From IMG/VR virus record IMGVR_UViG_3300050343_000281, positions 10,401 through 74,400 of that record: 64,000 nucleotides of DNA. One strand, 5' to 3'. Numbering within the stretch: the stretch's first letter is position 1; each line of letters begins with the position of its first letter. Source of the stretch: a virus. This document shows positions 5,181 through 48,403 of the stretch, piece after piece. The translations under genes were made by a program, and so were the position numbers. The notes beneath the pieces are model-generated. The model saw only the letters and a list, made by a program, of their open reading frames with translations. It ran no database searches and was not told where the DNA came from.

Positions 5181-5384
5181 TTATCTCCTATGTATTTTCT
5201 CGCAAATAGCAAAAGCATCCTCAATATCTACACCTTGTTCTGTCATAAAGTCATCAATACATTCCTTTAATCTTTGTATATGGGTTTTGTTTTTTTTCTT
5301 TTTAACGCTTCTTTCTGGCAAATTTAAGGCACAAGAAGAAAATACGCAAAATACGATTAAAATGATTAAATTTTTTAATAACAT
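5181..5384 (-). CDS. Putative small lipoprotein
   Basis: Hydrophobic N-terminus ending in lipobox-like FSSC. Confidence 0.55.
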   Translation of the reverse strand: MLLKNLIILIVFCVFSSCALNLPERSVKKKKNKTHIQRLKECIDDFMTEQGVDIEDAFAICEKIHRR

Positions 5385-5488
5385 GTTATTCCTTTTCTTT
5401 ATATAAATTTTGTAAAAACTTTATAAAACTTACATAATCTGATTCTCTAAATAGTTTTATTATAAGTTTAACATCCATATCATCCCTT

Positions 5489-10256: not shown

Positions 10257-11261
10257 TTAAACCTCACTTAGATCATACTTACTAAATAATTTCATAACAC
10301 TCCCATATAGTTCTATTTGATCATTTGTATAGTCATTTTCTTTACCTATTTCTTTATAGTCTTTTAACCAATCTTTATAAGGTAATACTTTACATCCTAT
10401 CTTAAAATAATGTTCGTTATCGTAATAAAAATACACTAATAAATCTTTTTCCCCATTAAAAGACATTATACCTTTTGCCTCATTTAAGTTTGCTCCACGT
10501 AATTCTGCCTCACCTAAGTTTACTCCACTAAAGTCTGCCCAACGTAAGTCTGCCTTACGTAAGTTTGCTCCACCTAAGTTTGTCCCACTTAAGTTTGCCT
10601 CACGTAAGTCTGCTCCACTAAAGTTTGCCTCATTTAAGTCTGCTCCACTAAAGTTTGCCCCATACAAGTCTACCCCACCTAAGTCTGCCTTACGTAAGTT
10701 TGCCCCACGTAAGTCTGCCTTACGTAAGCTTGCCCCACCTAAGTTTGCTCCACCTAAGTTTGCCCCACGTAAGTTTGCCCCACTTAAGTTTGCTCCACTT
10801 AAGTCTGCCTTACGTAAGTTTGCCTTACCTAAGTATGCCTCATACAAGTTTGCCCCACGTAAGTCTGCCTTACGTAAGCTTGCCCCACCTAAGTTTGCCC
10901 AACGTAAGTTTGCTCCACCTAAGTTTGCCCCACGTAAGTTTGCCCCACCTAAGTTTGTTTTATTTAAGTTTGCCTTACCTAAGTATGCCTCATACAAGTT
11001 TGCCCCACTTAAGTTTACTCCACTTAAGTTTGCCCAAAACAAGTTTGTCCCACTTAAGTTTGCTCCACGTAAGTTTGCCCCATACAAGTTTGCTTCACGT
11101 AAGTTTGCCCCACTTAAGTTTGCTCCACTTAAGTCTGCCTTAAGTAAGTTTGCTCCACGTAAGTTTGCTCCACTTAAGTCTGCCTTACGTAAGTTTGCTC
11201 CACGTAAGTTTGCCTCACGTAAGTATGCTTTAGGTTCTATTTTATAATTATATACTATCAT
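10257..11261 (-). CDS. Pentapeptide repeat protein
   Basis: About 50 A(N/D)LxX repeats then a non-repeat C-terminal domain (YFKIGC...W). Confidence 0.95.
   Translation of the reverse strand: MIVYNYKIEPKAYLREANLRGANLRKADLSGANLRGANLLKADLSGANLSGANLREANLYGANLRGANLSGTNLFWANLSGVNLSGANLYEAYLGKANLNKTNLGGANLRGANLGGANLRWANLGGASLRKADLRGANLYEAYLGKANLRKADLSGANLSGANLRGANLGGANLGGASLRKADLRGANLRKADLGGVDLYGANFSGADLNEANFSGADLREANLSGTNLGGANLRKADLRWADFSGVNLGEAELRGANLNEAKGIMSFNGEKDLLVYFYYDNEHYFKIGCKVLPYKDWLKDYKEIGKENDYTNDQIELYGSVMKLFSKYDLSEV
10475..11230. repeat. 15-bp tandem repeat array encoding pentapeptides
   Basis: Unit aagt(t/c)tgc(c/t)(c/t)c(a/c)(c/t)(g/c/t)t repeated about 50 times. Confidence 0.95.
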
Positions 11262-11491
11262 TTATCCCTCTCATATTCCATTGCATAATCAATTCTTAGG
11301 TCGATATCATTTTTATTAACAACTTTACCATTACAAAGGTTTATCCAGTCTTCTATAAAATCATTTTCGTCTTGTCCCTCATGTTTTAATTCCATTATAA
11401 GATCAACTAATTCATCTTTAGAACATGATTCGTAATGTCTTAAAAGGTCATTTTCCATGCCGTCAATGTCTTCTATAAGCCTTTTATTCAT
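11258..11491 (-). CDS. Hypothetical protein
   Basis: 77-aa ORF behind promoter. Confidence 0.65.
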   Translation of the reverse strand: MNKRLIEDIDGMENDLLRHYESCSKDELVDLIMELKHEGQDENDFIEDWINLCNGKVVNKNDIDLRIDYAMEYERDK

Positions 11492-11513
11492 TATTATTTC
11501 CTTTCCTATAGTT

Positions 11514-11542
11514 ACTTTACTAAATTATATGCAACGTGTCAA
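11514..11542 (-). promoter_or_regulatory. Sigma70-type early promoter
   Basis: TTGACA-17-TAAAGT; shares core with 8985..9013. Confidence 0.6.
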
Positions 11543-11688
11543 CTATTTTATTAAAATATACATTTTAATCTAAAAAGATCATGAAGATTATCAATATTGC
11601 TAAACATAAAAGCCAATGCTCCTAACTCCATAAATCCTTTTCCTTTATAAAGTCTAATCTCATTTTATTAAATTGAGTATTATACTTT

Positions 11689-11901
11689 CTATTCACTATC
11701 TTGTTTGCTAATTTCTTCAAAAATTGTAACATAATAACCGTCCTCATCTCTATTTAGAATATCACTTGACATGATTACTCTATATGTTTTTTTAGTAGAC
11801 TTTTTTAAAAGACCATTAGGTTCTGTAATTTCAACTATACTATTCTTTTTGAATTGCTGCTCTGTTTTGATCCATCTAGTTTTATCCATTAATTTCTCCA
11901 T
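11689..11901 (-). CDS. Hypothetical protein
   Basis: 70-aa ORF. Confidence 0.55.
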   Translation of the reverse strand: MEKLMDKTRWIKTEQQFKKNSIVEITEPNGLLKKSTKKTYRVIMSSDILNRDEDGYYVTIFEEISKQDSE

Positions 11902-11915
11902 TTAGTACAATGTCT

Positions 11916-12305
11916 TTAAATAGTATAGTATAAATCATTTAACTTTGTATAATTATTTTTACTCTTTGCTGTTTTTTCATCAACTCTTTGTAATTTACCT
12001 AGCTTTTGCTCTTTTCCATCTGAGTAAATCAACCAACTTAAACCATTACTATCTTGATGTAAAATAGACTCTTGTTTGAAGTTTAAGAAAGCAAATGACT
12101 TTAAAGCCTCTAATTCTACATTATCCCTTACCACAACTACAAAACTATTTTCTAAATTACCTTGATAAAATCCTTGAGATTTTCCATAATGAAAATTACA
12201 CTCAGCAAGACATTTTTCTAAATTAGAGGTTCTTCTTTTATTCTCTTCTGAAGTGTTATTTTCTAATTCAGCCGATAAAATTACAATCCTTGACATTATT
12301 CTCAT
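11916..12305 (-). CDS. Probable S-adenosylmethionine lyase (T3 SAMase-like)
   Basis: ILSAE...GFYQG..ENSFVVV...F.QESILH pattern; ~125 aa; early position. Confidence 0.7.
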   Translation of the reverse strand: MRIMSRIVILSAELENNTSEENKRRTSNLEKCLAECNFHYGKSQGFYQGNLENSFVVVVRDNVELEALKSFAFLNFKQESILHQDSNGLSWLIYSDGKEQKLGKLQRVDEKTAKSKNNYTKLNDLYYTI

Positions 12306-12454: not shown

Positions 12455-12670
12455 TTACAAGCCCCTATGATTATCTAAAATATTTAGTAACTTAATATTA
12501 ATGTCATAAACTTTTTGATCTAATTCTTTTACTTCATTACTATCGTTTCCCCACATAATATTATAAACTTCTATCTTTTTTAATAAAATATTTAACTCTT
12601 TGTATAACATCAAATAAGTACTCTTTGTAAAAGCGTCCATTGATTCTGTAATTTTTGTTTGATTGTTCAT
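12455..12670 (-). CDS. Hypothetical protein
   Basis: 71-aa ORF with GAGGG RBS behind promoter. Confidence 0.65.
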   Translation of the reverse strand: MNNQTKITESMDAFTKSTYLMLYKELNILLKKIEVYNIMWGNDSNEVKELDQKVYDINIKLLNILDNHRGL

Positions 12671-12703
12671 ACGGTCCCTCTTTTGTTTATTTCCTTAATA
12701 TTA

Positions 12704-12732
12704 ATTATAGTGTATAACGCAATGCAATGCAA
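12704..12732 (-). promoter_or_regulatory. Sigma70-type early promoter
   Basis: TTGCAT-17-TATAAT. Confidence 0.7.
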
Positions 12733-12824
12733 CAAAAAAATAACATAGTGTGTAAAAAAATGTAATATTGTAATGATTTCAATAAAAGAGTAACAATTCC
12801 GTAACTTATCCGTAAGTAATTAAA

Positions 12825-12837
12825 TTTAACAACTATA
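12825..12837 (+). promoter_or_regulatory. Late-promoter-like motif TTTAACAACTATA
   Basis: Same motif precedes structural genes; here it precedes an ORF-free structured region. Confidence 0.65.
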
Positions 12838-12842
12838 TATAT

Positions 12843-13230
12843 ATAAGACTAAGACCGTAAAAAAATGCCTTAAGATGTACATGCAAGAGGCGACTAGGAT
12901 AGCCCCACTAACTTAGGTTAGTATATCACTACAAGTCGAGGGATTAAGTTTGTAGCGGAACGCTTAGTTTAGTATAAAGAGTAAGTACACGCTCTAAAAT
13001 GCGACCAATCAGAGCTTGATAGCTAAAGCCTTAACCGAAAGTACAAATAAAGTTAAGCGCATAACATAACCAAACTAGAGTTTTTCGGACTACTAGTAAA
13101 GTATTGTTATGCCTTGAAACGTAGCTTTATAAAGATATAGCCCCTTATCCTTGGAGCTATTTAGAAGTGTATAATGTTGCATTGAACAATGCTTGTTAAA
13201 TCGGTGGGACCATTGAAATGTATTCTATTA
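12843..13230 (+). ncRNA. Candidate large structured non-coding RNA
   Basis: No ORF of 60 aa or more, GC above flanks, about ten nested helices, G-U pairs favour + strand; 3' end uncertain. Confidence 0.6.
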
Positions 13231-13253
13231 TATCCGTATAAGTGTTAAATGTA

Positions 13254-13445
13254 TTATCTTGTTTTGATAGTCTCAATTAAAGATAGTATTAGTTTATAAT
13301 TAGTTGAATTTTTATACCAAATCACTCTATCCATTACCTCATCTTCCAAATAACTCTCCAATATAAACTCACTATCAGTACAATATAAGCTATAATCATA
13401 CTGTACATTCCTACAATCTCCAGTAAAGTCCTCTAATAGTTGCAT
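13254..13445 (-). CDS. Hypothetical early protein
   Basis: 63-aa ORF with GGGAG RBS behind promoter. Confidence 0.6.
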   Translation of the reverse strand: MQLLEDFTGDCRNVQYDYSLYCTDSEFILESYLEDEVMDRVIWYKNSTNYKLILSLIETIKTR

Positions 13446-13482
13446 GATATCTCCCTTGTGCTATGTGTCATTTTCTATATAA

Positions 13483-13511
13483 ATTATATCTTATCTAAAA
13501 TATCCTGTCAA
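13483..13511 (-). promoter_or_regulatory. Sigma70-type early promoter
   Basis: Perfect TTGACA-17-TATAAT. Confidence 0.85.
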
Positions 13512-13563
13512 GTACTTTTCTAAAAAATGTTCCATCCATAGAACTAAGGAGAAGGTATTGTAT

Positions 13564-13755
13564 TTAGTATAAAGAACCAGTTAACTCTATGGTTCCGACT
13601 AAAAACTCTAAATTATTGTAGTCGTCTAATACGTTACATATGTCTTTATTATTTAAAATCCAAGTATTGTTATCAGTTTCTATATAGCCCTTGTTCTTTA
13701 TTGAATCATATACAAATCTATATTTATTACTGTCATCATTAATTACTGTTAACAT
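13564..13755 (-). CDS. Hypothetical early protein
   Basis: 63-aa ORF with GGAG RBS. Confidence 0.6.
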   Translation of the reverse strand: MLTVINDDSNKYRFVYDSIKNKGYIETDNNTWILNNKDICNVLDDYNNLEFLVGTIELTGSLY

Positions 13756-13756
13756 A

Positions 13757-13939
13757 TTACTCTCCCTTTAACCAAGTTAGGTGTTTTACTATAGTACTTG
13801 TAATATTTAGATTACTCTTGTTGCATAACTGTGACTCTTTTTTACTTAGTAATACTGAGTTACCAATCAATGTATTAGTTATAATGCCGCCATCACCATT
13901 GTACTTGTAGTGGTAGTCTCCAATAAATACTGATATCAT
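13757..13939 (-). CDS. Hypothetical early protein
   Basis: 60-aa ORF with GAGGG RBS. Confidence 0.6.
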   Translation of the reverse strand: MISVFIGDYHYKYNGDGGIITNTLIGNSVLLSKKESQLCNKSNLNITSTIVKHLTWLKGE

Positions 13940-13978
13940 ATGTCCCTCTCTTTGTGCTACGTGTCATTTCCTAATACT

Positions 13979-14006
13979 AGTATACCACACTTACAACTCC
14001 TGTCAA
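13979..14006 (-). promoter_or_regulatory. Sigma70-type early promoter
   Basis: TTGACA-16-TATACT with extended TG. Confidence 0.7.
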
Positions 14007-14113
14007 GGGGAAAGTACACTATATTAAAATAAAATTCAGTATTACAATGATGACAGATAATTAGTTACTTTATATATTCTAGTCTATATAATGTAATATT
14101 GGAGAGTGATGTA

Positions 14114-14260
14114 TGCAAGGATGGTACCAAGTATGTGGTAAGTATTTTGCTAATGCAAGAATCGTGCCCACCAATATGGCACAGTATTTGCAGGGGGGAA
14201 TGCTTGGCATAGTAATTGCTAATGCAAGAGCGATACCAGAAAGTTGGCATGGGGATTGTA
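14114..14260. repeat. Cluster of seven sigma54 (-24/-12)-like sites
   Basis: Six GG-N10-GC sites matching TGGYAY-N5-TTGCW closely plus one GG-N10-GT, on both strands. Confidence 0.8.
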
Positions 14261-14825
14261 GGGGGGGTGGGTGGTTCTAGCTGTGTACTGTTGGTTACGT
14301 ATAGGGCTGAGAGTGCGTAGGTACTAAATATATTTATTACACGTAATATAACCTCTATACTACCCTATTTACCATTTACTTTACTCCATTTAATTGATCT
14401 ATTATATACTTACATAATAATACAGGTAATACTAAAGGAGTTGATATAATTATAACAACTGCTGTTATGCCCAAAAAAAAACTCATTAATACAAAAACCA
14501 ATGCACTTTCTGTTATATTCATAAATCCTCTAAATAATCTTTAATTATTTCTATTCTAAACTGTGGAGCATATGGTTTATTCTGATCAAAGCTTTTCTCA
14601 AGATCTGCCAAATATAAGTATATATCATCAGAGACTAATCTATCAACATAAGAATCATCAATTCCAATAAGCCATATTCTAATATATTTCAATACTGCTC
14701 CTATTTATTACACTTAATTTCGACAACCTCTTAAATTAGCTTTATTTGCGTTTTTTAGATAAGACATATAAAGTATAGGGTTAGGGTGTTTAGAGAATTT
14801 AAACGGCAAATTAAGGGCTAATTTG

Positions 14826-15035
14826 CTAGTCTTTTCCTTCCATGTCGCATCTAAGAATTGCATAGTCTATTTTTAGACGTAACATTTCAAGTTCAGTGAC
14901 TGTTTCTTCATATTCTTCTATAAGTCTATTTAACTCCTGATCTGTTTTTGGAAGCTCTTCCCAGCCAGGATATTGTTTTTCTGAGTAGGCGAAATTATAT
15001 CGAGTCATTTCGTTGATTAATAATAGCTTTTTCAT
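14826..15035 (-). CDS. Hypothetical protein, tandem paralog of 15036..15251
   Basis: Shared YNF..SE..Y.GW.ELP....LN....YE motif. Confidence 0.7.
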   Translation of the reverse strand: MKKLLLINEMTRYNFAYSEKQYPGWEELPKTDQELNRLIEEYEETVTELEMLRLKIDYAILRCDMEGKD

Positions 15036-15251
15036 TTAAAAACTTTCCTTTTTATCACTTTCTAGTCTTTCTAGTTCTCTTTCAAAAAGGATTTGTAAAG
15101 CTTTTAATTCTCTTCTAATGTCTTCATAATCTTGTAATATGTTATTTAATCTTGGTGAATATGGTAATTCTTTCCACCCTACGTATATTTCTTCGGATTC
15201 TGTAAAATTATACACCAATTCATTGGTAATACACATTTGTAGTAATTTCAT
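15036..15251 (-). CDS. Hypothetical protein, tandem paralog of 14826..15035
   Basis: Shared motif as above; TAACAACTATA on minus strand at 15276-15286. Confidence 0.7.
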   Translation of the reverse strand: MKLLQMCITNELVYNFTESEEIYVGWKELPYSPRLNNILQDYEDIRRELKALQILFERELERLESDKKESF

Positions 15252-15316
15252 GCTCTATTCTCCTTCCTTTATAAATATAGTTGTTATTTTAGAAGGATAA
15301 AAAGTAATACATTTAC

Positions 15317-15544
15317 TTAAATTTTATAGGATTTATAGTCGTTTTTCCAGTTTTCTATGTCTTCATACGTTCTTAAAGCATCATAAGATTCAACCCATCT
15401 TACATCTCCTGGATCGTCTACCCAATAAAATCTATTATCATGAGCTTTAATACAGAAAAAACCAGCATCTGTTATTTTAATCAACTCTCCAGACATTAAT
15501 TTGTTTTCAAATCGGTGCAAAAACACTACGTATATCTTTTCCAA
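15317..15544 (-). CDS. Hypothetical protein
   Basis: 75-aa ORF, TTG start with AGGAG RBS. Confidence 0.55.
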   Translation of the reverse strand: MEKIYVVFLHRFENKLMSGELIKITDAGFFCIKAHDNRFYWVDDPGDVRWVESYDALRTYEDIENWKNDYKSYKI

Positions 15545-15552
15545 GACAACTC

Positions 15553-15738
15553 CTATAGTTTATTTTTAGAATATCTAGCTTTTTCTAGTAATTTATCAGT
15601 TATTACATCTATTCTGCGTATTATAAACTTCTTTTCTGACTCAGAAATGCTATAAGTACTTAGAATCCTAAGTAATTCTTCTCTTTCTTTCTTAATTTTT
15701 TCAATTTTTTCTTTATCTTCAAATGGGCTTAAACGCAC
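15553..15738 (-). CDS. Hypothetical protein
   Basis: 61-aa ORF. Confidence 0.5.
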   Translation of the reverse strand: MRLSPFEDKEKIEKIKKEREELLRILSTYSISESEKKFIIRRIDVITDKLLEKARYSKNKL

Positions 15739-16015
15739 GAAAAGTTCCTTTATCTAAATCAAACTCTAATTCATATACCTGACCTTGAGAATTAAATAAA
15801 AATCCCTGATTACCATTACACATTGGACTAGTTTCTAGTTTTTTATCGAAAAAAAACCAGTAATTCATAGAATATGCACCAGAATGGTTCATTTTACTTG
15901 TAAAAAAGTATCCAAATTTGTCATATATTTTTAAATACACCGTAGCAGACAGGACTAGAGTATTAGTACACCCTGCATATAATCTTAAGTCCATGTCTAA
16001 AAAGTCCCGTCCCAA
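15719..16015 (-). CDS. Hypothetical protein
   Basis: 98-aa ORF overlapping neighbours. Confidence 0.55.
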   Translation of the reverse strand: MGRDFLDMDLRLYAGCTNTLVLSATVYLKIYDKFGYFFTSKMNHSGAYSMNYWFFFDKKLETSPMCNGNQGFLFNSQGQVYELEFDLDKGTFRAFKPI

Positions 16016-16251
16016 TCATCTCCATCATAATCAAAATCTAATTGAGAAATAAGCTCTTCCCAATCTTCTATGTTACCTAGTCTATATTCTTTAGTTCCAG
16101 AAGCAGAGGATTTTTTTAATACAACTATATCTTCTGCTGTTTTTCCACAAGGTTTGCAATCATACCATATATTAACTCCAAAAGAAGTTCTAGTCCACTT
16201 GGTATCGCAGATAGGGCATTTTTCAGTTTCTGGTTTAAATTGCTTTGTCAC
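15997..16251 (-). CDS. Zn-ribbon protein
   Basis: CPIC...CKPC, acidic tail. Confidence 0.65.
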   Translation of the reverse strand: MTKQFKPETEKCPICDTKWTRTSFGVNIWYDCKPCGKTAEDIVVLKKSSASGTKEYRLGNIEDWEELISQLDFDYDGDDWDGTF

Positions 16252-16438
16252 TTTCTAAGATCTCCTTTCTCTTGCGAATAGACCACACTACATGTGTTCT
16301 ATTAACAGTAGAACATGCCATTCCTAATTTTACCTGGGTTTCTGGTTTTAGTAAAGAAAAATCTGTTTCACAAGGTTTTTTTTCTTGCTTTACAGGCTGC
16401 GGACTGCTAAAAAACAATGCTATTAGTAATTCTTTCAT
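16235..16438 (-). CDS. Hypothetical protein
   Basis: 67-aa ORF. Confidence 0.5.
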   Translation of the reverse strand: MKELLIALFFSSPQPVKQEKKPCETDFSLLKPETQVKLGMACSTVNRTHVVWSIRKRKEILESDKAI

Positions 16439-16581
16439 GTTATTACACCTTTTCGGGAGATCGTATTTTTGTGAAACAAAAAACGAAAGGGCTTTCCACC
16501 CTTATTTTAATATATCTGTCACTTTTTGTACTTTTTGTTATATTTTTCATATAAAATAGCCCATCTGTCACTAAAATTATA

Positions 16582-16821
16582 TTAGTCCTTATCCGTCATA
16601 TCTTTGTAATCTTCGTCCGACACTATAATAGCTGCATTGTACTGAAGGTAGATTCCAAAAAAGTATAAAAATATATTTAGAAAAAATATCAATACTTGTA
16701 GAGGATATAAAGAAGATATTATAGCTATTTTAAAAGCACTTAATCTTTCTGGATAATTATATATTCTAAAAGTAGTCAGTCCTAGATATATAGAAAGATA
16801 TAATATTATTAAAAGTTCCAT
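16582..16821 (-). CDS. Hypothetical membrane protein
   Basis: Two hydrophobic segments. Confidence 0.6.
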   Translation of the reverse strand: MELLIILYLSIYLGLTTFRIYNYPERLSAFKIAIISSLYPLQVLIFFLNIFLYFFGIYLQYNAAIIVSDEDYKDMTDKD

Positions 16822-17027
16822 GAATCCTCATTAGTAGGTACTAAATATCCTAAAGATGCTAATTTAGTTTCCATATACAGCGTGTCACATACCATTTCTA
16901 TAGCTTCTTCTAAATCTTCTGCCATAAAAGTAAAAAATGCATAATCCCTTGCCACTTTTCCTACTATCATATTAAATCCTCCAGTAATTATAATAGTATT
17001 ATAAGTAATGTAAGTCAATAAGTACAT
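16809..17027 (-). CDS. Hypothetical protein
   Basis: Probable start at internal MIVGKV after GGAGG. Confidence 0.5.
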   Translation of the reverse strand: MYLLTYITYNTIIITGGFNMIVGKVARDYAFFTFMAEDLEEAIEMVCDTLYMETKLASLGYLVPTNEDSWNF

Positions 17028-41306: not shown

Positions 41307-42308
41307 ATGGCAAGACCAATAATTGCCTCTAAGCTGATCAGATCAGTTAGAAATAGGGCTTTAATCCCAACAGATACTTCTACATACCAAGACCAAGATA
41401 TTCTCGATATTCTAAACGAGGAAGTTACACAAGGTCTTTTATCCACAATTATGTCTCTAAATGAAGAACATTTAGTAGACCATATCGACATTCCAATAAA
41501 CTCAACTCAAGACTTATCAAACGGTATAAAAATACCAGAAAGAGCAGTAGGTAATAAATTAAGAGAAGTTTCCTATATTAGAGAAGGAAATATATACGAA
41601 TTATCTAGAATCTCTTTAGAAGAACTTTCTGACTACAGAAATGACTTTGATAGATATAACTATAACCTAGACCTTTTTTATATAGAAGGAGATAGGATTA
41701 AATTTGTATCTAATAGAGTTAGTGCTGATTTTGTAAGAGTATATTTTTACATGATGCCTAATGATATAGTACTTGAAACAGAATGTGCTCAAATAATAAA
41801 TATACTTGATAACGGAGATGGAACTACAAAGTTAACTTTATCTACTTTTCCAGAAAGTTTATTAGCTGTAAATGGAGATTATCCTTTATATGACTTTGTT
41901 AGTCCAAAAGTTCCTAATAAAATTACAGGATTTGATGTAAAACTATTAGAAACTGAAAGTCCTATAAACCAAAACGATAAAACTATACTTTTTAAAACAG
42001 AAGATCTTCCATCTAACTTAGAAAAAAATGATTATTTATGTAAGCAATTTACCACTCCTTATCTAAACATGCCTACAGAAATGCACTCATTATTAGCACA
42101 AAGAGCTGCTATATATATCCTTGAAGCACTTGGAGATACAGAAGGCTTAAGAAACGCTGCTGCTAGATTACAGGGAATGAATGTATCTATTCAAACTGTT
42201 TTAGAAGATAGAGTAGAAGGTGCTCCACAAAAAATTAACCCAAGACACTCACCTCTTTCTCAGACATCTTGGGTTGGGACAAGAGGTAGAAATAAAGGGA
42301 GAGGATAA
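41307..42308 (+). CDS. Head-tail adaptor / tail tubular protein A-like
   Basis: LIRSVRNRA...DILDILNEE...IPERAVGNKLR; position before nozzle-like gene. Confidence 0.65.
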   Translation: MARPIIASKLIRSVRNRALIPTDTSTYQDQDILDILNEEVTQGLLSTIMSLNEEHLVDHIDIPINSTQDLSNGIKIPERAVGNKLREVSYIREGNIYELSRISLEELSDYRNDFDRYNYNLDLFYIEGDRIKFVSNRVSADFVRVYFYMMPNDIVLETECAQIINILDNGDGTTKLTLSTFPESLLAVNGDYPLYDFVSPKVPNKITGFDVKLLETESPINQNDKTILFKTEDLPSNLEKNDYLCKQFTTPYLNMPTEMHSLLAQRAAIYILEALGDTEGLRNAAARLQGMNVSIQTVLEDRVEGAPQKINPRHSPLSQTSWVGTRGRNKGRG

Positions 42309-45300
42309 TGTCTCAAAGATCCAATACCATTAAAGCTGCAGGATTATATACATTTTTATCAGAGCTACAAGCTCCAGAAGGGAGTTTAGTAAAAGCTGAT
42401 AATATAAATATAGATGAAATGGGAGTTATCACTCCTAGAAGAGGCTTTGGTGATTATGGAGAAGAACTTCCTAATACTAGTCAAACAGTTAAACAATTAT
42501 TAGAATATAAAAACAGAATACTAAGACATTATAACGGTAAGTTAGAATTTGACGATGGTAACGGAGTATTCACTCCATTCTTAGAAACTATTGAAGAAGT
42601 AGAGCCAGGTCTTAGAATAAAATCAAAACAAGTAAACAGTAATTTATATTTTACTAGTAGCGAAGGTATAAAAAAACTTTCTGCAAAAACATCAGCAGAT
42701 TTAAGTAATATTAACATTGATAATGCAGGAGTCCCAAAAGCAGTAGACCTAACTGCTAAAGTATCTCCAGCTTCTACAGCACTAGGTTTTTTACCCCCTA
42801 GATCTAAAGTAGGTTATAAAATTCTCTATGGATATAGAGATTTAAATAATGTACTTATATTAGGAGCACCTACTTCAATAACCGTTGTTACAAATGCTGA
42901 AAGAGATATTCCTACTCCAGAACAGTTTAGTATTACTTTTCAAGAAGGTACTAGTGCTGAGCAAGATTTTATAAGTACTGAAGGAATTGGAAAATACTTT
43001 ACAATATCTACATTAGATATAGACTACTATGTTTGGTATAATATAGCAGATATTGGAGACTCAGAAACGGCTACTGAAAGACCAGAAGACGAAGATACTT
43101 TTGGGAAAATACCAATTCAAGTTAATGTTAATAAAACTGACACTAATGAAAAAATAGCTGCAAAAACAGCAAACGTACTAAACAATGAATTATCTTCTCA
43201 ATTTGAAGTAATATTTTTAGGAAATAAGATTACACTAAAGAGTAAAGAAGATGGTAATATAAAAAACGCAACTAATGGAAATTTAACAGCTAATGAAATC
43301 TTACTAGAGATCATTCTAGAAGGTAATTTAATAGAAGGTAAAAACGTAAATTGCGAAATAGAAACGGTAATACCAAATACAATAGATAAAGACAGATTAC
43401 CGTTTTTTATTCAAATATATAGAACTAGATTTATAACAGCTACTGAAGATCAAGAACTTTCTGATATACTTCCAGGAGAAGAATGTAACTTGGTCCATGA
43501 AGAAGCTATAACACTAGAGCCTGGGCAAATATATACCCATATAGATGACGTAACAGAAGACTTTAGAGATAGAGGAACTCCTTTATACAATAATCCATTT
43601 TCAGGAGAAGGTCTACTACAAACCAATGAAATCCCACCTATTGCAAAGGATATAGAAAACTTTAATAACTATACCTTTTATTCCAACACAAAAACATTCC
43701 ACAGATCTCAATTTAGATTTATTTCAGTAGACGATTTTAAAAACGAAGAAACAGCTATATTTATAGGAAATGAAGATATACTTAATCAATATGTTTTTAG
43801 AGGAGTACAGGAACAAACTACAATTACTTGTGGAACAAAAGCTAATACAGCAGAGTCTGTTATTGAAGAAAATCAATTAGTTTTTAAAAACCCTAATTTA
43901 AATTATTTAAAAGATACTGCAGAGTTTCAAGTTGCGGTAGATAATGGGATAGTGTCATCGTCCAGTGCTTCTTTAGCAATTTTTGAAAATTACTTGGCAG
44001 ATGCACCATCTTTAAATACTTTAAATTTTTATGAAATAGTTAATAACCAGTTAATATTAAAAAACAATAATATAGAAATTTTTAATGAAGAAATAAAATC
44101 TATAAGCATATATCAAAACTATTTAGCAACTTTAAGCCTAAGAGGAGATCCTCCCAATACTGATGGAGTTTTACGTTTATATGAGATCATAAAAGATCCT
44201 GTTACTGAGGACATAATTCTTAATGGAGCCGGATTTTCTACTTTTGATTCTAATGTTTTATCTAATAATAGTGTGTTGTCTATTTTTAACGATACTGTGG
44301 TTCATACAAATGAAGATGGTGATAATATATTTATACATAAAATACAAAACAACACTATAAACCCTACTCCAGACCTTATAATAGATAATCAAACAATTAC
44401 TGATTTAAAAATATCTAGTTTGAGTCTTTATCAAGATTTATTATTAGTAGGAGGAGAAAAAACTTTATTAATTGATATATCTGATTTGCAGAATATAGTT
44501 ATAAAAAATGAAATTAACACTGAAATGCAAGAATCTTTTGTATCAATACAAGGATCATATGCTTTAGTATCTAATGTTTTATCTTCTGGAAGTAACGATT
44601 CTTTTACTAATGCTGGAGAGGTTAAAGTATATAAAATTAATACAAATAATCAACTAAATTTGTTAACCACTTTGTACTCTCCTATTGAAATAGATAGTGG
44701 CTCTTTTGGAAGATCTGTAGACGTTTATAACAATTATATAATAATAGGACAAAGAAAAAGAACCTTACCTTCAGGAGAAGGAAATTCATTTTTATTTAGA
44801 ATAAATAATGACGATTCTATAGAATTAATTGATGTACAAAGCTCTAGTGATGAAACGCAAACAACTTCTTTTGGAGAAATGGTAAGATTGTATGATGATA
44901 AAATAGCTGTAGGAACTACGGGACCTGTTGGAGCACCAGGCACTCATTTATTTCAAATAAAAAACAGCGAATATCTTCCAATAGAATCTACTCAACAAAA
45001 TCCAGCATATTTAAAAATATACTCAAGAGAAGACGAAAACAAATATTATTTATGGTATAATCTAGGACAGGGGGTAGATCCATCAACATTAGATAATACT
45101 TTAGAAGATTTTACTGGGATAGAGGTAAATATAACAGAAAATGACAATTTTACTGAAATACTAGAGTCAACAAAAGAAAGTCTTGAAGTATTTTCGGATT
45201 TTCAAATAAACACTGTAAATTTATTGGAAAGTTTTTTAGCAAAACAATCAACTAACATATTTAATAAAGAAAATCACGGACTTGTTACTAATACTAAAGT

Positions 45301-48300
45301 TATCTATAAAGATAAAAATTGTAATGCAATTCCGATAGATAATAACAACTTTAAGTTATATGATATAGATTCAAGCTCTGAAATTAAAGTTGGATCTATA
45401 CTAACAGAAGTATTACAAAACCCTTTAGATCACCGCCTAGAAAAAGATAATCATGGATTACAAAATGGAAACAGTGTAACTTATAATAATATAGATTACA
45501 TAGTAACTAAAGCTACTGAAAATCACTTTAAGTTATTAGAAGATGATGGCCAAGAAGTGGAAATACCAGGAATTGTTTTAGAAAATGTTACAGTTACTAG
45601 TAATGAGTTTGCAAGTAATGGTCATGGATTATTAAATAATGATTTTGTAAGACTAATAGGCACAGTAGATGATCCAAGTAAAGACGGAGAATACTTTGTT
45701 ATAAATACTATGACAGACACTTTCCAACTATCTATTACAGAAGGAGGACCTGCAGAAACATTTACTGATACGTCTAATTTAACTTTATATTCTTTGGAAG
45801 AAATAGATATACAAGTAAACGATAATTCAAGTACAATTGAAATTACTACTCCATTTAGACTTAATGTAAAAAACTCAAATGCAGGACAATCGACTGGTAT
45901 TGAAAATGTAGATCAAACCGAGGTAGAAGTTGTAAATGTTTCTCAAGGATTATCATCATATATTAATTTATATTCTGCAGAAGACACAATACATTATTAT
46001 ATTTGGTTCAATAAAGGAAATTCTATTGATCCTTTAGTAAATCAAGCTATAGGCATAGAAGTTGATATTTCTAGTGAATTAATAGCAGATAGCGAAAACG
46101 TATCTGTATATTTAAGACAAGCTTTATTAGATAATTTAGATTTTTTTGTAACACTTACAAATCCTTCTGGTGGAGTAATTGTAACTAATTCTGAAAACGG
46201 AGAGTCTACAAATTCCAGTACATTTGAAAATATTGAAACTGACATAGGTAATGGATGGGCTATTACTACGGATATTGAAGGCATAGGAGAAGATACTAGT
46301 ACTCAATCGTGTAAGTGGTCTATAAACCCATCAATAGCTATAAGCATAGAAGAAACAGCTAGGTCTTTTGTAAGAGTTGTTAATAGGGATGTAGATAGTC
46401 CAGTAAATGCATTTTATTTATCTGGAGAAGAAGACATACCAGGATTAATATTATTAGAAAATAGAAATGTAGAAGATAAACCATTTTATGTAGGAGTTAG
46501 AAATACTGGAAATATAGGCAAAGACATATCTACAGAGTTTGATCCAGCCCTGCCATTTGCAGAAGGAAAACTTGGAACTGAAATTACTGTAGGTGATATT
46601 GTTAAACTATTAGGAGAAGATATAATAAGGGTAAGTTTTGAAAAACATGGATTAAATGTAGGAGATGAAATATATTTTTATTTAGGACCAATAGACGAAC
46701 AGTCCAATGTAGATCAAATAAAACAAACTTTTACTGTTATAGAAAAAATAGAGGAAGGGATAGATCCTAATAATAATTTTTATTTGGAGTTTTCACAAAT
46801 AATAGACACCACTAACAGCCCTAGCTTTTACTTTTACAAAACAGATCAAGCTTCTGAAAACGAAGTAAAACCAAATAGGTTATATTACTCTAAGTTACTA
46901 CAACCAGAAGCAGTTCCTATTGGTAACTTTTTGGATGTAGGTAGTAGAGATTTTCCTATAGAAAGAATAATTGCATTAAGAGATACTTTGTTTGTTTTAA
47001 AAACAGACGGTATATATATGTTAACAGGATTTGGTGCTCCATTTGCAGTAAGGATATTAGATAATACTAGTAAAATAATCGCTCCAGATTCTGCAGTAGT
47101 GTTAAATAATCAAATATACTGCTTAACTGATGACGGAGTGGCTTCTATTACGGAAAGCGGAATATCTATTATATCAAGACCGATAGAAGATAGATTACTA
47201 GAAGTTACTGGGCAAGACTTTGATTTTAGACTTAGTACTTTTGCAGTACCTTACGATAACGATAAAGCATATATACTGTGGCTTCCAGTATCTTCTGAAG
47301 ACACAGTTTCTAAACAAGCCTATAGATACAACTACTATGAAAGAACTTGGACAAGATGGACAGTATCAGCTACTTCTGGAGTAGTATCAAATGATAGTAT
47401 CTTATATTTAGGTGACGGAGAACGACCATATACACTAAAAGAAAGAAAATCAAGATCTAGATTAGATTTTTCTGACATAAACTTTACTTTACAAATACCT
47501 CCTGATTCTGTAATTGGAGAAACTACTATAAGGTTGTCTAATTTTTCTAAGGTTGAAGTAGGGGATGTTTTAGTACAAGAACAATACGTTACAATTGACG
47601 TATATAATAATTTATTACTAAAACTAGATTTAGATCCCTTAGTAATTCCAGATGAAAATGAAAAATACGAAGCAATAAAAGCTGCTCCAGGAGATAACAT
47701 ATCTACAAAATTAGATCAACTTGAACAAAAACTAATATCAGATGGGATAAATATATCCGATAGAACATGGATACCATCTGCTCAAGATCTTGAAACTAGT
47801 ACATTTGCAGAATATATTAGGGATGAATTTAATGCATTTATAGATGAGTTGAATAACGAAAATAGTGGAACACAGTATAAAACTTATTCAAAAGCTAATC
47901 AGTTAATTCAATATGAATCTATAGTAGATAGCAAAAATACAAAAAGACCTGACTTAAATCGAATATCTGTTTTAATGCCTCATAGATTTTTTGAAGGAGA
48001 TATAGAAATATATAAAGCTATAAAAGCAGAAATACAATGGAATCCATTACATTTTGGAGATCCATCAGCCCAAAAGCAATTTAGTAAAGGTACGGTAATA
48101 GTAGATCAAAATAATTTTACAAAAGCAACTGTTTCTTATTCTTCAGATGTCTCGCAAGGATTTGTGGACATAGAAAAACAAGGTAAGGGAGTCGGATATT
48201 TTTCTTCTGGAAATTACGGAGATTCTAATTTGTATTGGGGAGGAGATGGAAATGATGTTCCATTGTTGAATATCATTCCTAGAGAAAAACAAAGAGGAAG

Positions 48301-48403
48301 ATACCTTAACGTAAAATTCCAACATGCAGTAGCTAGAGAAGGATTTAGAGTATTGGGAGTAACCACAGTAGTAAGAGCTGTATCAGATAGGGGATATAGA
48401 TAA
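42308..48403 (+). CDS. Tail nozzle / tubular protein B-like, with large insertions
   Basis: APEGSL..ADNI.ID..G....RRG start; NRLYYSK...PEAVP, LFVLKTDGIY, SIISRPIE propeller motifs. Confidence 0.7.
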   Translation: MSQRSNTIKAAGLYTFLSELQAPEGSLVKADNINIDEMGVITPRRGFGDYGEELPNTSQTVKQLLEYKNRILRHYNGKLEFDDGNGVFTPFLETIEEVEPGLRIKSKQVNSNLYFTSSEGIKKLSAKTSADLSNINIDNAGVPKAVDLTAKVSPASTALGFLPPRSKVGYKILYGYRDLNNVLILGAPTSITVVTNAERDIPTPEQFSITFQEGTSAEQDFISTEGIGKYFTISTLDIDYYVWYNIADIGDSETATERPEDEDTFGKIPIQVNVNKTDTNEKIAAKTANVLNNELSSQFEVIFLGNKITLKSKEDGNIKNATNGNLTANEILLEIILEGNLIEGKNVNCEIETVIPNTIDKDRLPFFIQIYRTRFITATEDQELSDILPGEECNLVHEEAITLEPGQIYTHIDDVTEDFRDRGTPLYNNPFSGEGLLQTNEIPPIAKDIENFNNYTFYSNTKTFHRSQFRFISVDDFKNEETAIFIGNEDILNQYVFRGVQEQTTITCGTKANTAESVIEENQLVFKNPNLNYLKDTAEFQVAVDNGIVSSSSASLAIFENYLADAPSLNTLNFYEIVNNQLILKNNNIEIFNEEIKSISIYQNYLATLSLRGDPPNTDGVLRLYEIIKDPVTEDIILNGAGFSTFDSNVLSNNSVLSIFNDTVVHTNEDGDNIFIHKIQNNTINPTPDLIIDNQTITDLKISSLSLYQDLLLVGGEKTLLIDISDLQNIVIKNEINTEMQESFVSIQGSYALVSNVLSSGSNDSFTNAGEVKVYKINTNNQLNLLTTLYSPIEIDSGSFGRSVDVYNNYIIIGQRKRTLPSGEGNSFLFRINNDDSIELIDVQSSSDETQTTSFGEMVRLYDDKIAVGTTGPVGAPGTHLFQIKNSEYLPIESTQQNPAYLKIYSREDENKYYLWYNLGQGVDPSTLDNTLEDFTGIEVNITENDNFTEILESTKESLEVFSDFQINTVNLLESFLAKQSTNIFNKENHGLVTNTKVIYKDKNCNAIPIDNNNFKLYDIDSSSEIKVGSILTEVLQNPLDHRLEKDNHGLQNGNSVTYNNIDYIVTKATENHFKLLEDDGQEVEIPGIVLENVTVTSNEFASNGHGLLNNDFVRLIGTVDDPSKDGEYFVINTMTDTFQLSITEGGPAETFTDTSNLTLYSLEEIDIQVNDNSSTIEITTPFRLNVKNSNAGQSTGIENVDQTEVEVVNVSQGLSSYINLYSAEDTIHYYIWFNKGNSIDPLVNQAIGIEVDISSELIADSENVSVYLRQALLDNLDFFVTLTNPSGGVIVTNSENGESTNSSTFENIETDIGNGWAITTDIEGIGEDTSTQSCKWSINPSIAISIEETARSFVRVVNRDVDSPVNAFYLSGEEDIPGLILLENRNVEDKPFYVGVRNTGNIGKDISTEFDPALPFAEGKLGTEITVGDIVKLLGEDIIRVSFEKHGLNVGDEIYFYLGPIDEQSNVDQIKQTFTVIEKIEEGIDPNNNFYLEFSQIIDTTNSPSFYFYKTDQASENEVKPNRLYYSKLLQPEAVPIGNFLDVGSRDFPIERIIALRDTLFVLKTDGIYMLTGFGAPFAVRILDNTSKIIAPDSAVVLNNQIYCLTDDGVASITESGISIISRPIEDRLLEVTGQDFDFRLSTFAVPYDNDKAYILWLPVSSEDTVSKQAYRYNYYERTWTRWTVSATSGVVSNDSILYLGDGERPYTLKERKSRSRLDFSDINFTLQIPPDSVIGETTIRLSNFSKVEVGDVLVQEQYVTIDVYNNLLLKLDLDPLVIPDENEKYEAIKAAPGDNISTKLDQLEQKLISDGINISDRTWIPSAQDLETSTFAEYIRDEFNAFIDELNNENSGTQYKTYSKANQLIQYESIVDSKNTKRPDLNRISVLMPHRFFEGDIEIYKAIKAEIQWNPLHFGDPSAQKQFSKGTVIVDQNNFTKATVSYSSDVSQGFVDIEKQGKGVGYFSSGNYGDSNLYWGGDGNDVPLLNIIPREKQRGRYLNVKFQHAVAREGFRVLGVTTVVRAVSDRGYR

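What the first reader, a model, noticed from the sequence alone, without database searches (positions are those of the whole stretch)
12825..13230. Candidate ~390-nt multi-domain structured RNA driven by the late-promoter motif
Seen: a copy of TTTAACAACTATA (12825-12837), which elsewhere precedes late genes, points into an ORF-free, relatively GC-rich region antisense to the early operons. Domain 1 is closed by AGACTAAG 12846-53/CTTAGTTT 12963-70 and CCG/CGG, and encloses GCCT/AGGC (12867/12888), ACTAAC/GTTAGT (12907/12917) and CTACAAG/TTTGTAG (12929/12949). GCTCT/AGAGC (12991/13011) follows. Domain 2 is closed by AGCTA/TAGCT (13021/13122) and encloses CTTAAC/GTTAAG (13030/13052) and GCATAACA/TGTTATGC (13059/13105) with inner ACTAG/CTAGT. 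ATAGC/GCTAT (13137/13156) and GCATTG/CAATGC (13179/13187) come last. G-U pairs favour the + strand, and loop GTCG (12935) could pair with loop CGAC (13002). It lacks tmRNA, RNase P and tRNA hallmarks. Inference: a novel late ncRNA, possibly a packaging/assembly RNA, protein sponge, antitoxin mimic or ribozyme.
Basis: partly seen in the sequence, partly recalled or inferred. Interest (0 to 1): 0.85.

Follow-up and report, generated by a model that had tools for sequence, protein, structure and literature searches.

The report
New folded RNA gene, marine phages
The gene-free stretch is a real gene for a roughly 360-base, intricately folded RNA that fits no catalogued RNA family; a group of uncultured marine phages keeps it directly behind the promoter type used for their virion genes, and what it does is still unknown.

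Summary
Confirmed. Window 12838-13201 (+) is a non-coding RNA gene. The motif TTTAACAACTATA sits directly in front of it. The window holds 11 copies of that motif, all on the + strand (chance expectation 0.7).

Ten or more related phage contigs, with TerL only 50-96% identical, keep the RNA in the same place while the flanking genes change. Domain 1: 90% of cells paired (28-41% when partners are slid), 24 of 32 pairs with compensatory changes. Domain 2: 92% paired, 13 of 29 compensatory. G-U cells outnumber A-C cells 40:12, which points to the + strand.

My revised fold for domain 1 is a four-way junction. It is closed by P1 and a K-turn-like loop and locked by a covarying P3-P4 pseudoknot. 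Domain 2 has three helices, and a 3' hairpin follows.

A shorter paralogue behind a sigma-70-type promoter sits just before the virion genes in relatives.

Rfam 15 and ARAGORN find nothing.

Function is not shown. My best guess (about 0.4) is a stable trans-acting RNA that binds a protein. Rivals are a polymerase-riding leader, a replication primer, and a ribozyme or ligand binder.

No RNA-seq data were available.

The parts
12799..12815 (+). Direct repeat CCGTAAC-N4-CCGTAAG, 10-38 nt upstream of the promoter motif. Possibly a regulator site specific to this promoter.
   Evidence: It occurs once in the window. Related TTACGG/TTACGT half-sites lie upstream of the same promoter in L034, L059, L057 and L069. 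They are absent from the other motif copies. The function is inferred.
12825..12837 (+). Promoter motif TTTAACAACTATA, shared with the virion genes.
   Evidence: The same motif stands directly before the RNA in L007, L009, L019, L034, L059, L057 and L069, with a variant in L038 and L193. It is found in 58 of the related loci fetched.
12838..13201 (+). Predicted transcript of the RNA gene (type A, about 360 nt). Both ends are predicted, not mapped.
   Evidence: Promoter position; helix P1 begins within 9 nt of the motif. A 3' hairpin is conserved in position with covariation.
12846..12853 (+). P1 5' strand. It pairs with 12963-12970.
   Evidence: 7 of 8 pairs show compensatory changes.
12963..12970 (+). 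P1 3' strand.
12854..12857 (+). A12854 (opposite G12962) and the P1b 5' strand CCG.
   Evidence: A is invariant. CCG/CGG changes to CGG/CCG in L009/L019 and to ACG/CGU in L016b.
12956..12962 (+). P1b 3' strand CGG, three-base bulge AAC, and G12962: a K-turn-like internal loop.
   Evidence: The pattern CGG-AA(C/G/A)-G-C is conserved in all 16 distinct members. The K-turn reading is an inference.
12858..12866 (+). A-rich junction strand UAAAAAAAU.
   Evidence: Conserved as U-R/U-AAA-N-A in all members.
12867..12891 (+). P2 hairpin (GCC 12867-12869 / GGC 12889-12891, 19-nt loop).
   Evidence: GCC/GGC changes to GGC/GCC, and other variants occur.
12892..12897 (+). Junction strand GACUAG.
   Evidence: Conserved in all type A members.
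12898..12927 (+). P3 arm: GAUA 12898-12901 / UAUC 12924-12927, internal loop GCCCC 12902-12906, and an inner hairpin ACUAAC/GUUAGU at 12907-12922.
   Evidence: At the same position P3 appears as GCUCG/CGAGU, GCACG/CGUGU, GGACG/CGUCU, GCACA/UGUGU and UAGCG/CGCUA.
12929..12955 (+). P4 arm: CUACAA 12929-12934 / UUGUAG 12950-12955, with a 15-nt loop.
   Evidence: 5 of 6 pairs are compensatory.
12903..12905 (+). Pseudoknot 5' strand (CCC in the P3 internal loop). It pairs with GGG 12940-12942 in the P4 loop.
   Evidence: In the same register the pair appears as CCC/GGG, CUC/GAG, AACA/UGUU, UAGAG/CUCUA and UGAAG/CUUCA. In the type B paralogue it appears as UGAG/CUCA, UGGA/UCCA and GGAGU/ACUCC.
12940..12942 (+). 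Pseudoknot 3' strand (GGG in the P4 loop).
12971..13012 (+). Variable linker. It holds the lineage-specific hairpin GCUCU/AGAGC.
   Evidence: Only 74% identical to the nearest relative, against 95% for domain 1. It is short or absent in the L034 group.
13013..13024 (+). Small conserved hairpin AGCU-UGAU-AGCU, followed by the invariant AAAGCC.
   Evidence: helix 1: 95% paired, one compensatory pair.
13030..13057 (+). P5 hairpin, CUUAAC/GUUAAG.
   Evidence: 5 of 6 pairs are compensatory. A metagenome contig carries 13034 A>T together with 13053 T>A.
13059..13112 (+). P6 (13059-13066/13105-13112) enclosing P7 (13074-13078/13093-13097).
   Evidence: helices 3 and 4: 90% and 98% paired. P6 has 3 compensatory pairs. 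P7 varies only through G-U pairs.
13137..13160 (+). Lineage-specific hairpin. Read on the - strand it also looks like a terminator.
   Evidence: Differently sequenced hairpins stand at the same position in L009 and L019, and none in the L034 group.
13179..13201 (+). 3' hairpin GCAUUG/CAAUGC with a U-rich tail: a probable 3' end or weak terminator.
   Evidence: The hairpin is conserved in position with 4 of 5 compensatory pairs. A U-tract follows in only some members.

Best explanation
Shown: window 12838-13201 (+) is a gene for a structured non-coding RNA of about 360 nt. It belongs to a family that Rfam does not hold.

The RNA starts directly behind the phage-specific promoter motif that also precedes the virion genes.

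Domain 1 (12846-12970) folds as a four-way junction:
- It is closed by P1 and a K-turn-like loop.
- A pseudoknot between the P3 internal loop and the P4 loop locks it.

Domain 2 (13013-13113) is made of helices P5, P6 and P7. A 3' hairpin follows.

Inferred mechanism (probability about 0.4):
- Late in infection the RNA is made as a discrete, stable molecule.
- Both ends are tucked into helices.
- It acts in trans as a folded platform that binds a phage or host protein, that is, as the RNA part of a ribonucleoprotein or as a decoy or sponge.
- The invariant core shared with the earlier-expressed type B paralogue would be the binding site. That core is the K-turn-like loop, CCG/CGG, the A-rich junction and the P3-P4 pseudoknot.

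That the RNA gene is real and lies on the + strand I rate at 0.9 or higher. The confidence figure below refers to the whole statement, including the inferred mode of action.
For: Existence and strand:
- The promoter motif is directly upstream.
- No frame is open.
- Homologues sit behind the same motif, in the same relative position, in phages whose TerL is 50-96% identical. The genes beside them are not conserved.
- Against the nearest relative, domain 1 is 95% identical and the neighbouring ORF 84%.
- Covariation in domain 1: 90.4% paired against 28-41% when slid, 24 of 32 compensatory pairs.
- Covariation in domain 2, on an alignment made from sequence alone: 92.4% against 30-43%, 13 of 29.
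- The pseudoknot appears in eight sequence variants, all in one register.
- An extra compensatory pair is seen in an independent metagenome contig.
- G-U to A-C cells are 40:12.

For a discrete trans-acting RNA:
- P1 starts within a few bases of the predicted start in every member.
- A 3' hairpin is conserved by covariation, and a canonical U-tract terminator follows in L069 and L016.
- No + strand ORF follows for 4.2 kb.
- Many unpaired bases are invariant, as in RNAs that bind a partner.
- A paralogue with the same core is expressed from a sigma-70-type promoter in relatives.
Against: - There is no transcript evidence at all.
- No partner protein is identified, and no gene co-occurs next to the RNA.
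- The 3' hairpin lacks a U-tract in several members (window, L007, L059, L057), so a defined 3' end is not assured.
- Every copy found on a contig that also carries TerL (except L051) points the same way as the virion genes (L019 and L193 cannot be oriented). The type B paralogue sits exactly at the head of that block. That fits a cis-acting leader better.
- The folding energy of domain 1 is no better than that of shuffled sequence.
Confidence: 0.45

Rival explanations
1. Cis-acting leader that rides on RNA polymerase (processive antitermination type, like HK022 put or pLS20 conAn2). Nascent domain 1 folds just behind the promoter and makes the elongating polymerase ignore hairpins and terminators. 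Transcription started at 12838 then runs antisense through the immediate-early block (13254-17027) and on into the virion genes. The type B paralogue does the same for host polymerase starting at a sigma-70 promoter at the head of the virion block.
For: - The RNA always lies directly behind a promoter, either phage-type or sigma-70-type.
- Several phages carry two paralogues behind different promoters, as with putL and putR (my own knowledge).
- Every copy on a TerL-bearing contig except L051 has the orientation of the virion genes.
- Type B lies 100-150 nt before the first virion-gene promoter copy in at least 8 phages.
- In L051 the RNA is followed by a co-directional ORF.
- The 3' hairpins often lack U-tracts.
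- conAn2 is a cis-acting RNA region of up to 283 nt at the head of a long operon (PMC8191782).
Against: - In the window and in all type A loci the next 4-6 kb are opposite-strand genes.
- The virion genes have their own promoter copies.
- There is no sequence or Rfam likeness to known antitermination RNAs.
- The fold is more elaborate than put. Domain 2 would have no evident role.
Confidence: 0.25
2. Replication primer or origin RNA. The upstream-most phage-specific promoter, which has no gene behind it and lies at the boundary of two early operons, makes a folded transcript that primes or opens an origin. Comparable cases are the T7 phi1.1A/B primary origin and ColE1 RNA II.
For: - It is an orphan phage-type promoter at the boundary between the immediate-early and later leftward genes.
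- AT-rich DNA lies downstream.
- Its orientation is co-directional with the virion genes.
- In L016 three TAAGTAGTAAA repeats, which look like iterons, follow the RNA.
- The analogy to T7 and ColE1 rests on my own knowledge.
Against: - A four-way junction with a pseudoknot, kept across distant phages, is not needed for priming.
- A second paralogue behind a host-type promoter next to the virion genes is hard to fit.
- There are no iterons in the window.
- GC skew is dominated by gene orientation and says nothing here.
Confidence: 0.1
3. Catalytic or ligand-binding RNA. The compact domain 1 core would be a new ribozyme or a sensor (riboswitch-like aptamer) rather than a protein platform.
For: The core combines a four-way junction, a kink-like loop, a loop-loop pseudoknot and many invariant unpaired bases. 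By my own knowledge this architecture resembles aptamers such as SAM-I and some ribozymes. The helices are thermodynamically weak, which suggests the fold depends on tertiary contacts.
Against: - No Rfam ribozyme or riboswitch model matches.
- There is no downstream ORF or expression platform.
- No conserved candidate cleavage site was identified.
Confidence: 0.1
4. Packaging or virion-associated RNA, comparable to phi29 pRNA.
For: It shares the promoter type of the head and packaging genes.
Against: - The phage has a T4-type large terminase and a P22/SU10-type portal. By my own knowledge, phages of that kind package without an RNA.
- The Rfam pRNA model does not match.
- The type B paralogue is driven by a host-type promoter that is probably early.
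Confidence: 0.04
5. Not an RNA gene. The region would be only a DNA-level control region: a terminator and promoters for the two leftward early operons.
For: The - strand has a terminator-like hairpin at 13160-13137 and sigma-70-like matches. The whole-RNA folding z-score is weak.
Against: Dozens of compensatory changes, a covarying pseudoknot and the excess of G-U over A-C cells cannot be explained at the DNA level.
Confidence: 0.03

Closest known systems
ROOL (RF03087) and GOLLD (RF01998): large 'ornate' RNAs of phages and prophages with unknown function
   Same: A phage-borne, multi-domain RNA with many conserved unpaired bases and no coding role. It is apparently made as its own unit, and its function is unknown.
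   Different: There is no match to either Rfam model. It is much smaller (about 360 nt against about 580 and 800). It is not next to tRNA genes; ARAGORN finds none in the window. Nothing is known about self-assembly.
Cis-acting processive antitermination RNAs: HK022 putL/putR, EAR, pLS20 conAn2 (PMC8191782)
   Same: It lies directly behind a promoter. Some phages carry two paralogues behind different promoters. Type B sits at the head of a roughly 40-kb operon block. Hairpins and terminators follow.
   Different: There is no sequence or model likeness. Type A is followed by opposite-strand genes. Antitermination activity has not been tested. No ConAn1-like partner gene lies beside it.
phi29 pRNA (packaging RNA)
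   Different: The phage here has an ordinary terminase and portal system. The Rfam pRNA model does not match. The genome type is different.
K-turn-containing four-way-junction aptamers such as the SAM-I riboswitch (comparison of structure only, from my own knowledge)
   Same: A four-way junction, a kink-like internal loop in a closing helix, and a loop pseudoknot that compacts the fold.
   Different: No Rfam match. The kink lacks the second G-A pair. There is no expression platform and no regulated ORF. It is a stand-alone gene with a second domain.
T7 primary origin promoters phi1.1A/B and ColE1 RNA II (primer transcripts; from my own knowledge)
   Same: A phage-type promoter without a gene behind it at a boundary of early gene classes; a folded primer RNA in ColE1.
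   Different: There is no evidence of an origin here. The tertiary fold is conserved far beyond what priming needs.

Membership tests
Any Rfam 15 family (including ROOL, GOLLD, 6S, RNase P, tmRNA, SRP, pRNA, EAR, group I/II introns, riboswitches, self-cleaving ribozymes) | A score at or above the family's gathering threshold with its covariance model. | tested here: not met
   No match in the whole window. In 12600-13500 at E<=10 the only hit is a chance snoRNA match. No match in seven related loci or in the type B paralogue.
tRNA / tmRNA | A cloverleaf or tRNA-like domain recognised by ARAGORN. | tested here: not met
   0 genes in the window.
Canonical kink-turn | A three-base bulge between a Watson-Crick helix and a helix that opens with tandem sheared G-A and A-G pairs. 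| tested here: not met
   The bulge AA(C/G/A), the CCG/CGG helix and one possible G-A pair (G12962 with A12854) are invariant. The second position is a C-G pair in all members. It is therefore only K-turn-like.
Canonical kink-turn | Kinked geometry, or binding by an L7Ae-type protein. | not testable with these tools
   This needs structure probing or a solved structure.
phi29-type pRNA | A packaging motor that lacks a conventional terminase, and a match to the pRNA model. | tested here: not met
   A T4-type TerL and a P22/SU10-type portal are present. There is no Rfam match.
Processive antitermination leader RNA (put / EAR / conAn2 type) | Lies at the 5' end of the transcript, directly behind the promoter. 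| tested here: met
   P1 begins 1-9 nt after the promoter motif, or about 7 nt after the -10 box, in all members.
Processive antitermination leader RNA (put / EAR / conAn2 type) | Heads a long co-directional operon that contains terminators. | tested here: inconclusive
   For type A in the window this is not met directly: opposite-strand ORFs fill 13254-17027 before the virion genes. The type B paralogue in relatives meets it.
Processive antitermination leader RNA (put / EAR / conAn2 type) | Makes polymerase read through terminators in cis. | not testable with these tools
   This needs a reporter assay.
Riboswitch | An aptamer followed by an expression platform and a regulated downstream gene. 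| tested here: not met
   There is no + strand ORF downstream. No conserved alternative pairing between P1 and the 3' hairpin was found (inspection).
6S RNA | A rod-like duplex with a central bubble that mimics an open promoter. | tested here: not met
   The consensus fold is multi-branched. There is no Rfam match.

The most novel reading that the evidence does not exclude
The shared domain 1 core is a new kind of RNA that acts on the transcription machinery itself. It would be an RNA-only early-to-late switch. A late-promoter copy (type A) drives polymerase antisense through the immediate-early genes. A host-promoter copy (type B) opens the 40-kb virion block. Both would work by riding on RNA polymerase.
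Probability: 0.25. Interest if true: 0.85.

Novelty: new variant of a known kind. Interest (0 to 1): 0.68.

Why it matters
Large, well-folded RNAs without a known job are rare, and in the past they have led to new biochemistry. This family has a clear and testable architecture: a four-way junction, a kink-like loop and a covarying pseudoknot. It comes in two paralogous forms wired to two different promoter types. It is also better conserved than the protein genes around it in a whole group of uncultured marine phages.

If it is a protein sponge or decoy, it points to a host or phage factor that matters late in infection. If it rides on polymerase, it would be a new RNA-based switch of the phage gene programme. 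Either way it gives a defined construct for structure probing, pull-downs and reporter assays, even though no host is in culture.

At family and fold level nothing like it is catalogued. The general kind, a phage-borne ornate RNA of unknown function, is known, so I rated the novelty conservatively.

Tried and rejected
- **Rfam at the gathering threshold and at E<=10**: nothing usable.
- **ARAGORN**: nothing.
- **blastn of the region against 50,697 phage records**: no match.
- **Single-sequence folding energy**: not significant for the whole RNA or for domain 1. I treat this as an insensitive test, not as evidence against the RNA.
- **Sequencing runs**: no RNA holder was listed, so expression could not be examined. 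The four runs I laid are DNA contigs. Parts of the stretch without cover mean nothing.
- **The look-up of encoding contigs**: The many long Logan/ENA contigs that carry TerL relatives therefore could not be fetched.
Only two loci from contigs that were already known passed the model.
- **Stricter patterns**: found no new viral contigs.
- **Genome-contig hit in Dasania (L194)**: rejected as chance. It has no P1 pairing and no model match.
- **L010**: shares only the promoter motif, which there stands before a protein gene.
- **Search for a T7-type RNA polymerase (PF00940) in the genome**: nothing found, but the control genomes were silent too, so this is inconclusive. No sigma factor or polymerase family was found among 40 proteins scanned.
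- **Supplementary lists of the IMG/VR structured-RNA catalogue (PMC10690425)**: not held. I could not check whether this motif is among its 10,006 unnamed candidates.
- **Partner protein gene beside the RNA**: the flanking ORFs are not shared between clades.
the loop contact GTCG-CGAC(13002), the helix AGCTA/TAGCT as closure of domain 2, and the RNAalifold mini-hairpin GG/CC at 12897-12904. I replaced the last with P3, GAUA/UAUC.

Full report
**Setting.** The window is bases 10401-74400 of a 74.4-kb IMG/VR virus record judged 95% complete.

- The genome is AT-rich, about 27% GC.
- It has a T4-type large terminase, a P22/SU10-type portal and a major head protein on the + strand.
- Early and replication genes lie on the - strand: family A DNA polymerase, a DnaB-like helicase, a Sak annealing protein, a SAM lyase and a pentapeptide-repeat protein.
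- The nearest cultured relative by TerL is only 32% identical.
- DNA runs that hold the stretch are listed as marine and other aquatic metagenomes (only four of them were laid).

**The observation.** The motif TTTAACAACTATA occurs 11 times with at most one mismatch, always on the + strand, against 0.73 expected.

- Most copies lie 20-36 nt before the start codons of virion genes.
- The same motif is found, on the TerL strand, in 58 of the related loci fetched. It is therefore almost certainly the virion-gene ('late') promoter of this phage group.
- I found no phage RNA polymerase or sigma factor, so what recognises the motif is unknown.
- The copy at 12825-12837 faces a 583-nt gap (12671-13253) between - strand ORFs.
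- That gap has 11-21 stops in every frame, raised GC and reversed skews.

**Homologues.**

- Close relatives came from searches with the flanking small proteins and with TerL. One is about 90% identical in the RNA (L007) and one about 69% (L009).
- One metagenome pattern scan added L019 and a distant copy in an ENA contig, L016.
- A covariance model of domain 1 (R1) was searched over 64 TerL-related IMG/VR loci. It found further members in phages whose TerL is only 50-65% identical: L034/L035, L038, L051, L055, L057, L059 and L069. It also found a second, shorter kind of copy.
- A strict pattern scan of 185,579 genomes found one more member, on an 88-kb contig binned as a Synechococcus MAG (L193).
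- Rfam 15 and ARAGORN recognise none of them.

**Two forms of the family.**

Type A, the form in the window, is 290-375 nt long.
- It always starts directly behind the TTTAACAACTATA motif (a variant in L038 and L193).
- It has domain 1, domain 2 and a terminal hairpin.
- It always lies 4-6 kb upstream of the first virion gene, separated from it by opposite-strand early genes.

Type B is about 195 nt long.
- It shares the domain 1 core but starts behind a TTGACA-17-TAxxxT promoter.
- It lies 100-150 nt before the first virion-gene promoter copy in at least eight relatives.
- The window's phage has no type B copy.

The genes next to type A are not shared between clades. The RNA itself is retained, and against the nearest relative domain 1 is 95% identical while the adjacent ORF is 84%.

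**Structure and covariation.**

- With four type A sequences, RNAalifold gives 55 pairs, 20 of them with compensatory changes.
- On the 16 distinct domain 1 sequences, 90.4% of cells pair, against 28-41% when partners are slid by 1-3 columns. 24 of 32 pairs show changes on both sides. This alignment is fitted to the model, which favours it.
- Domain 2 was tested on a plain MAFFT alignment of eight sequences. It gives 92.4% against 30-43%, with 13 of 29 compensatory pairs.
- A 300-nt contig from an independent marine run carries 13034 A>T together with 13053 T>A. These are the two sides of one P5 pair.
- G-U cells outnumber A-C cells 40 to 12. Together with the promoter and the U-tracts after the terminal hairpin in L069, L034 and L016, this sets the strand as +.

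**Revised fold.**

Domain 1 runs as follows (coordinates in the window):
- P1 (12846-12853/12963-12970).
- An invariant A opposite G, with a three-base bulge AA(C/G/A).
- P1b, CCG/CGG.
- The A-rich strand UAAAAAAAU.
- P2.
- The strand GACUAG.
- P3 (GAUA/UAUC, with an inner hairpin).
- One A.
- P4, which stacks directly on P1b.

The 5' side of the P3 internal loop pairs with the P4 loop.
- In the same register this pseudoknot reads CCC/GGG, CUC/GAG, AACA/UGUU, UAGAG/CUCUA and UGAAG/CUUCA in type A.
- In type B it reads UGAG/CUCA, UGGA/UCCA and GGAGU/ACUCC.

The internal loop next to P1 has the layout of a kink-turn but lacks the second G-A pair, so I call it only K-turn-like.

Domain 2 is a small hairpin, the invariant AAAGCC, then P5, P6 and P7.

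AGCTA/TAGCT and the GTCG-CGAC contact are not conserved.

Folding energy alone is unremarkable for domain 1 (z = -0.37) and clear only for domain 2 (z = -3.15). Short helices held together by tertiary contacts would give that result.

**How it may work.** Nothing here shows function, and no RNA data were available.

I favour a discrete, stable, trans-acting RNA that binds a protein (about 0.4). The reasons are:
- Both ends are in helices.
- The terminal hairpin is conserved.
- No gene follows on its strand.
- Many unpaired bases are invariant.
- A paralogue with the same core is expressed from a different promoter type.

The main rival (about 0.25) is a cis-acting, polymerase-riding leader.
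- Earlier notes of this scan on other phages pointed me to the conAn2 system, which I read (PMC8191782).
- For it: the strict position behind promoters, the common orientation with the virion genes, the place of type B at the head of the virion block, and the frequent lack of U-tracts.
- Against it: 4-6 kb of opposite-strand genes lie behind type A, and the virion genes have their own promoters.

A primer or origin RNA, a ribozyme or ligand sensor, and a packaging RNA are less likely. A purely DNA-level reading is close to excluded by the covariation.

**Earlier notes of the scan.** First readers flagged the type A and type B copies of the L034/L035 phage in another window (e1-6060897 and e1-6060898). 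The family has therefore been seen before in this scan on other DNA, but it had not been followed up.

**Limits.**
Many long contigs with TerL relatives could not be read, and the homologue set stays small (about 16 distinct domain 1 sequences).
- A better model could not be calibrated.
- The transcript ends are predictions.
- Whether the motif is among the unnamed candidates of the IMG/VR structured-RNA catalogue (PMC10690425) could not be checked.

Noticed in passing
L034:7946-8140, L069:7981-8175, L054:3633-3828, L059:7999-8194, L031:880-1085, L045:70-262, L033:5920-6110: Type B paralogue. This is a structured RNA of about 195 nt with the same core as domain 1, behind a TTGACA-17-TAxxxT promoter. 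It lies 100-150 nt before the first virion-gene promoter copy. It has 41 predicted pairs, 22 of them compensatory, and its own covarying pseudoknot. The window's phage lacks it.
   Followed up: partly
window 12799-12815: A direct repeat, CCGTAAC-N4-CCGTAAG, occurs only upstream of the RNA's promoter copy. Related TTACGG/TTACGT half-sites stand at the same place in L034, L059, L057 and L069. It may be a regulator site that gives this promoter its own control.
   Followed up: partly
window 14050-14300: A GC-rich patch (47% GC) with strongly positive GC skew lies on the + strand inside the early region. It holds a 55-codon ORF (14113-14280) with an internal repeat, a Shine-Dalgarno-like site and a sigma-70-like promoter match at 14050-14078. 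It could be a small protein or a second RNA. The R1 model does not match it.
   Followed up: no
window 10257-12305: Early genes typical of counter-defence lie just left of the RNA: a 334-aa pentapeptide-repeat protein (10257-11261, -) and a SAM lyase (11916-12305, -).
   Followed up: partly
L016:13400-13510: Three direct repeats of TAAGTAGTAAA follow the strong terminator of the distant RNA copy in the ENA contig OGWO01000025.1. They look like iterons or operators. The same contig carries a second family copy at 5357-5472 inside a 1.2-kb gene-free gap.
   Followed up: no
related loci; window copies: The 12-13-nt promoter motif is kept unchanged in phages whose TerL is only 40-50% identical, yet no phage RNA polymerase or sigma factor was recognised in this genome. 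The factor that reads the motif is unknown.
   Followed up: partly
window 42308-48403: A 2031-aa virion-block protein has no Pfam or PHROG family.
   Followed up: partly
proteins P0012, P0042, P0053, P0056, P0073, P0109: Several TerL relatives are 820-850 aa long and carry LAGLIDADG or intein-type domains (PF14528, PF14890). This suggests inteins in the terminase of some members of the phage group.
   Followed up: no
window 13483-13511 and 13979-14006 (- strand): A perfect sigma-70 consensus promoter (TTGACA-17-TATAAT) and a second near-consensus one drive the leftward immediate-early genes. The host therefore uses canonical sigma-70 promoters and strong Shine-Dalgarno sites.
   Followed up: no
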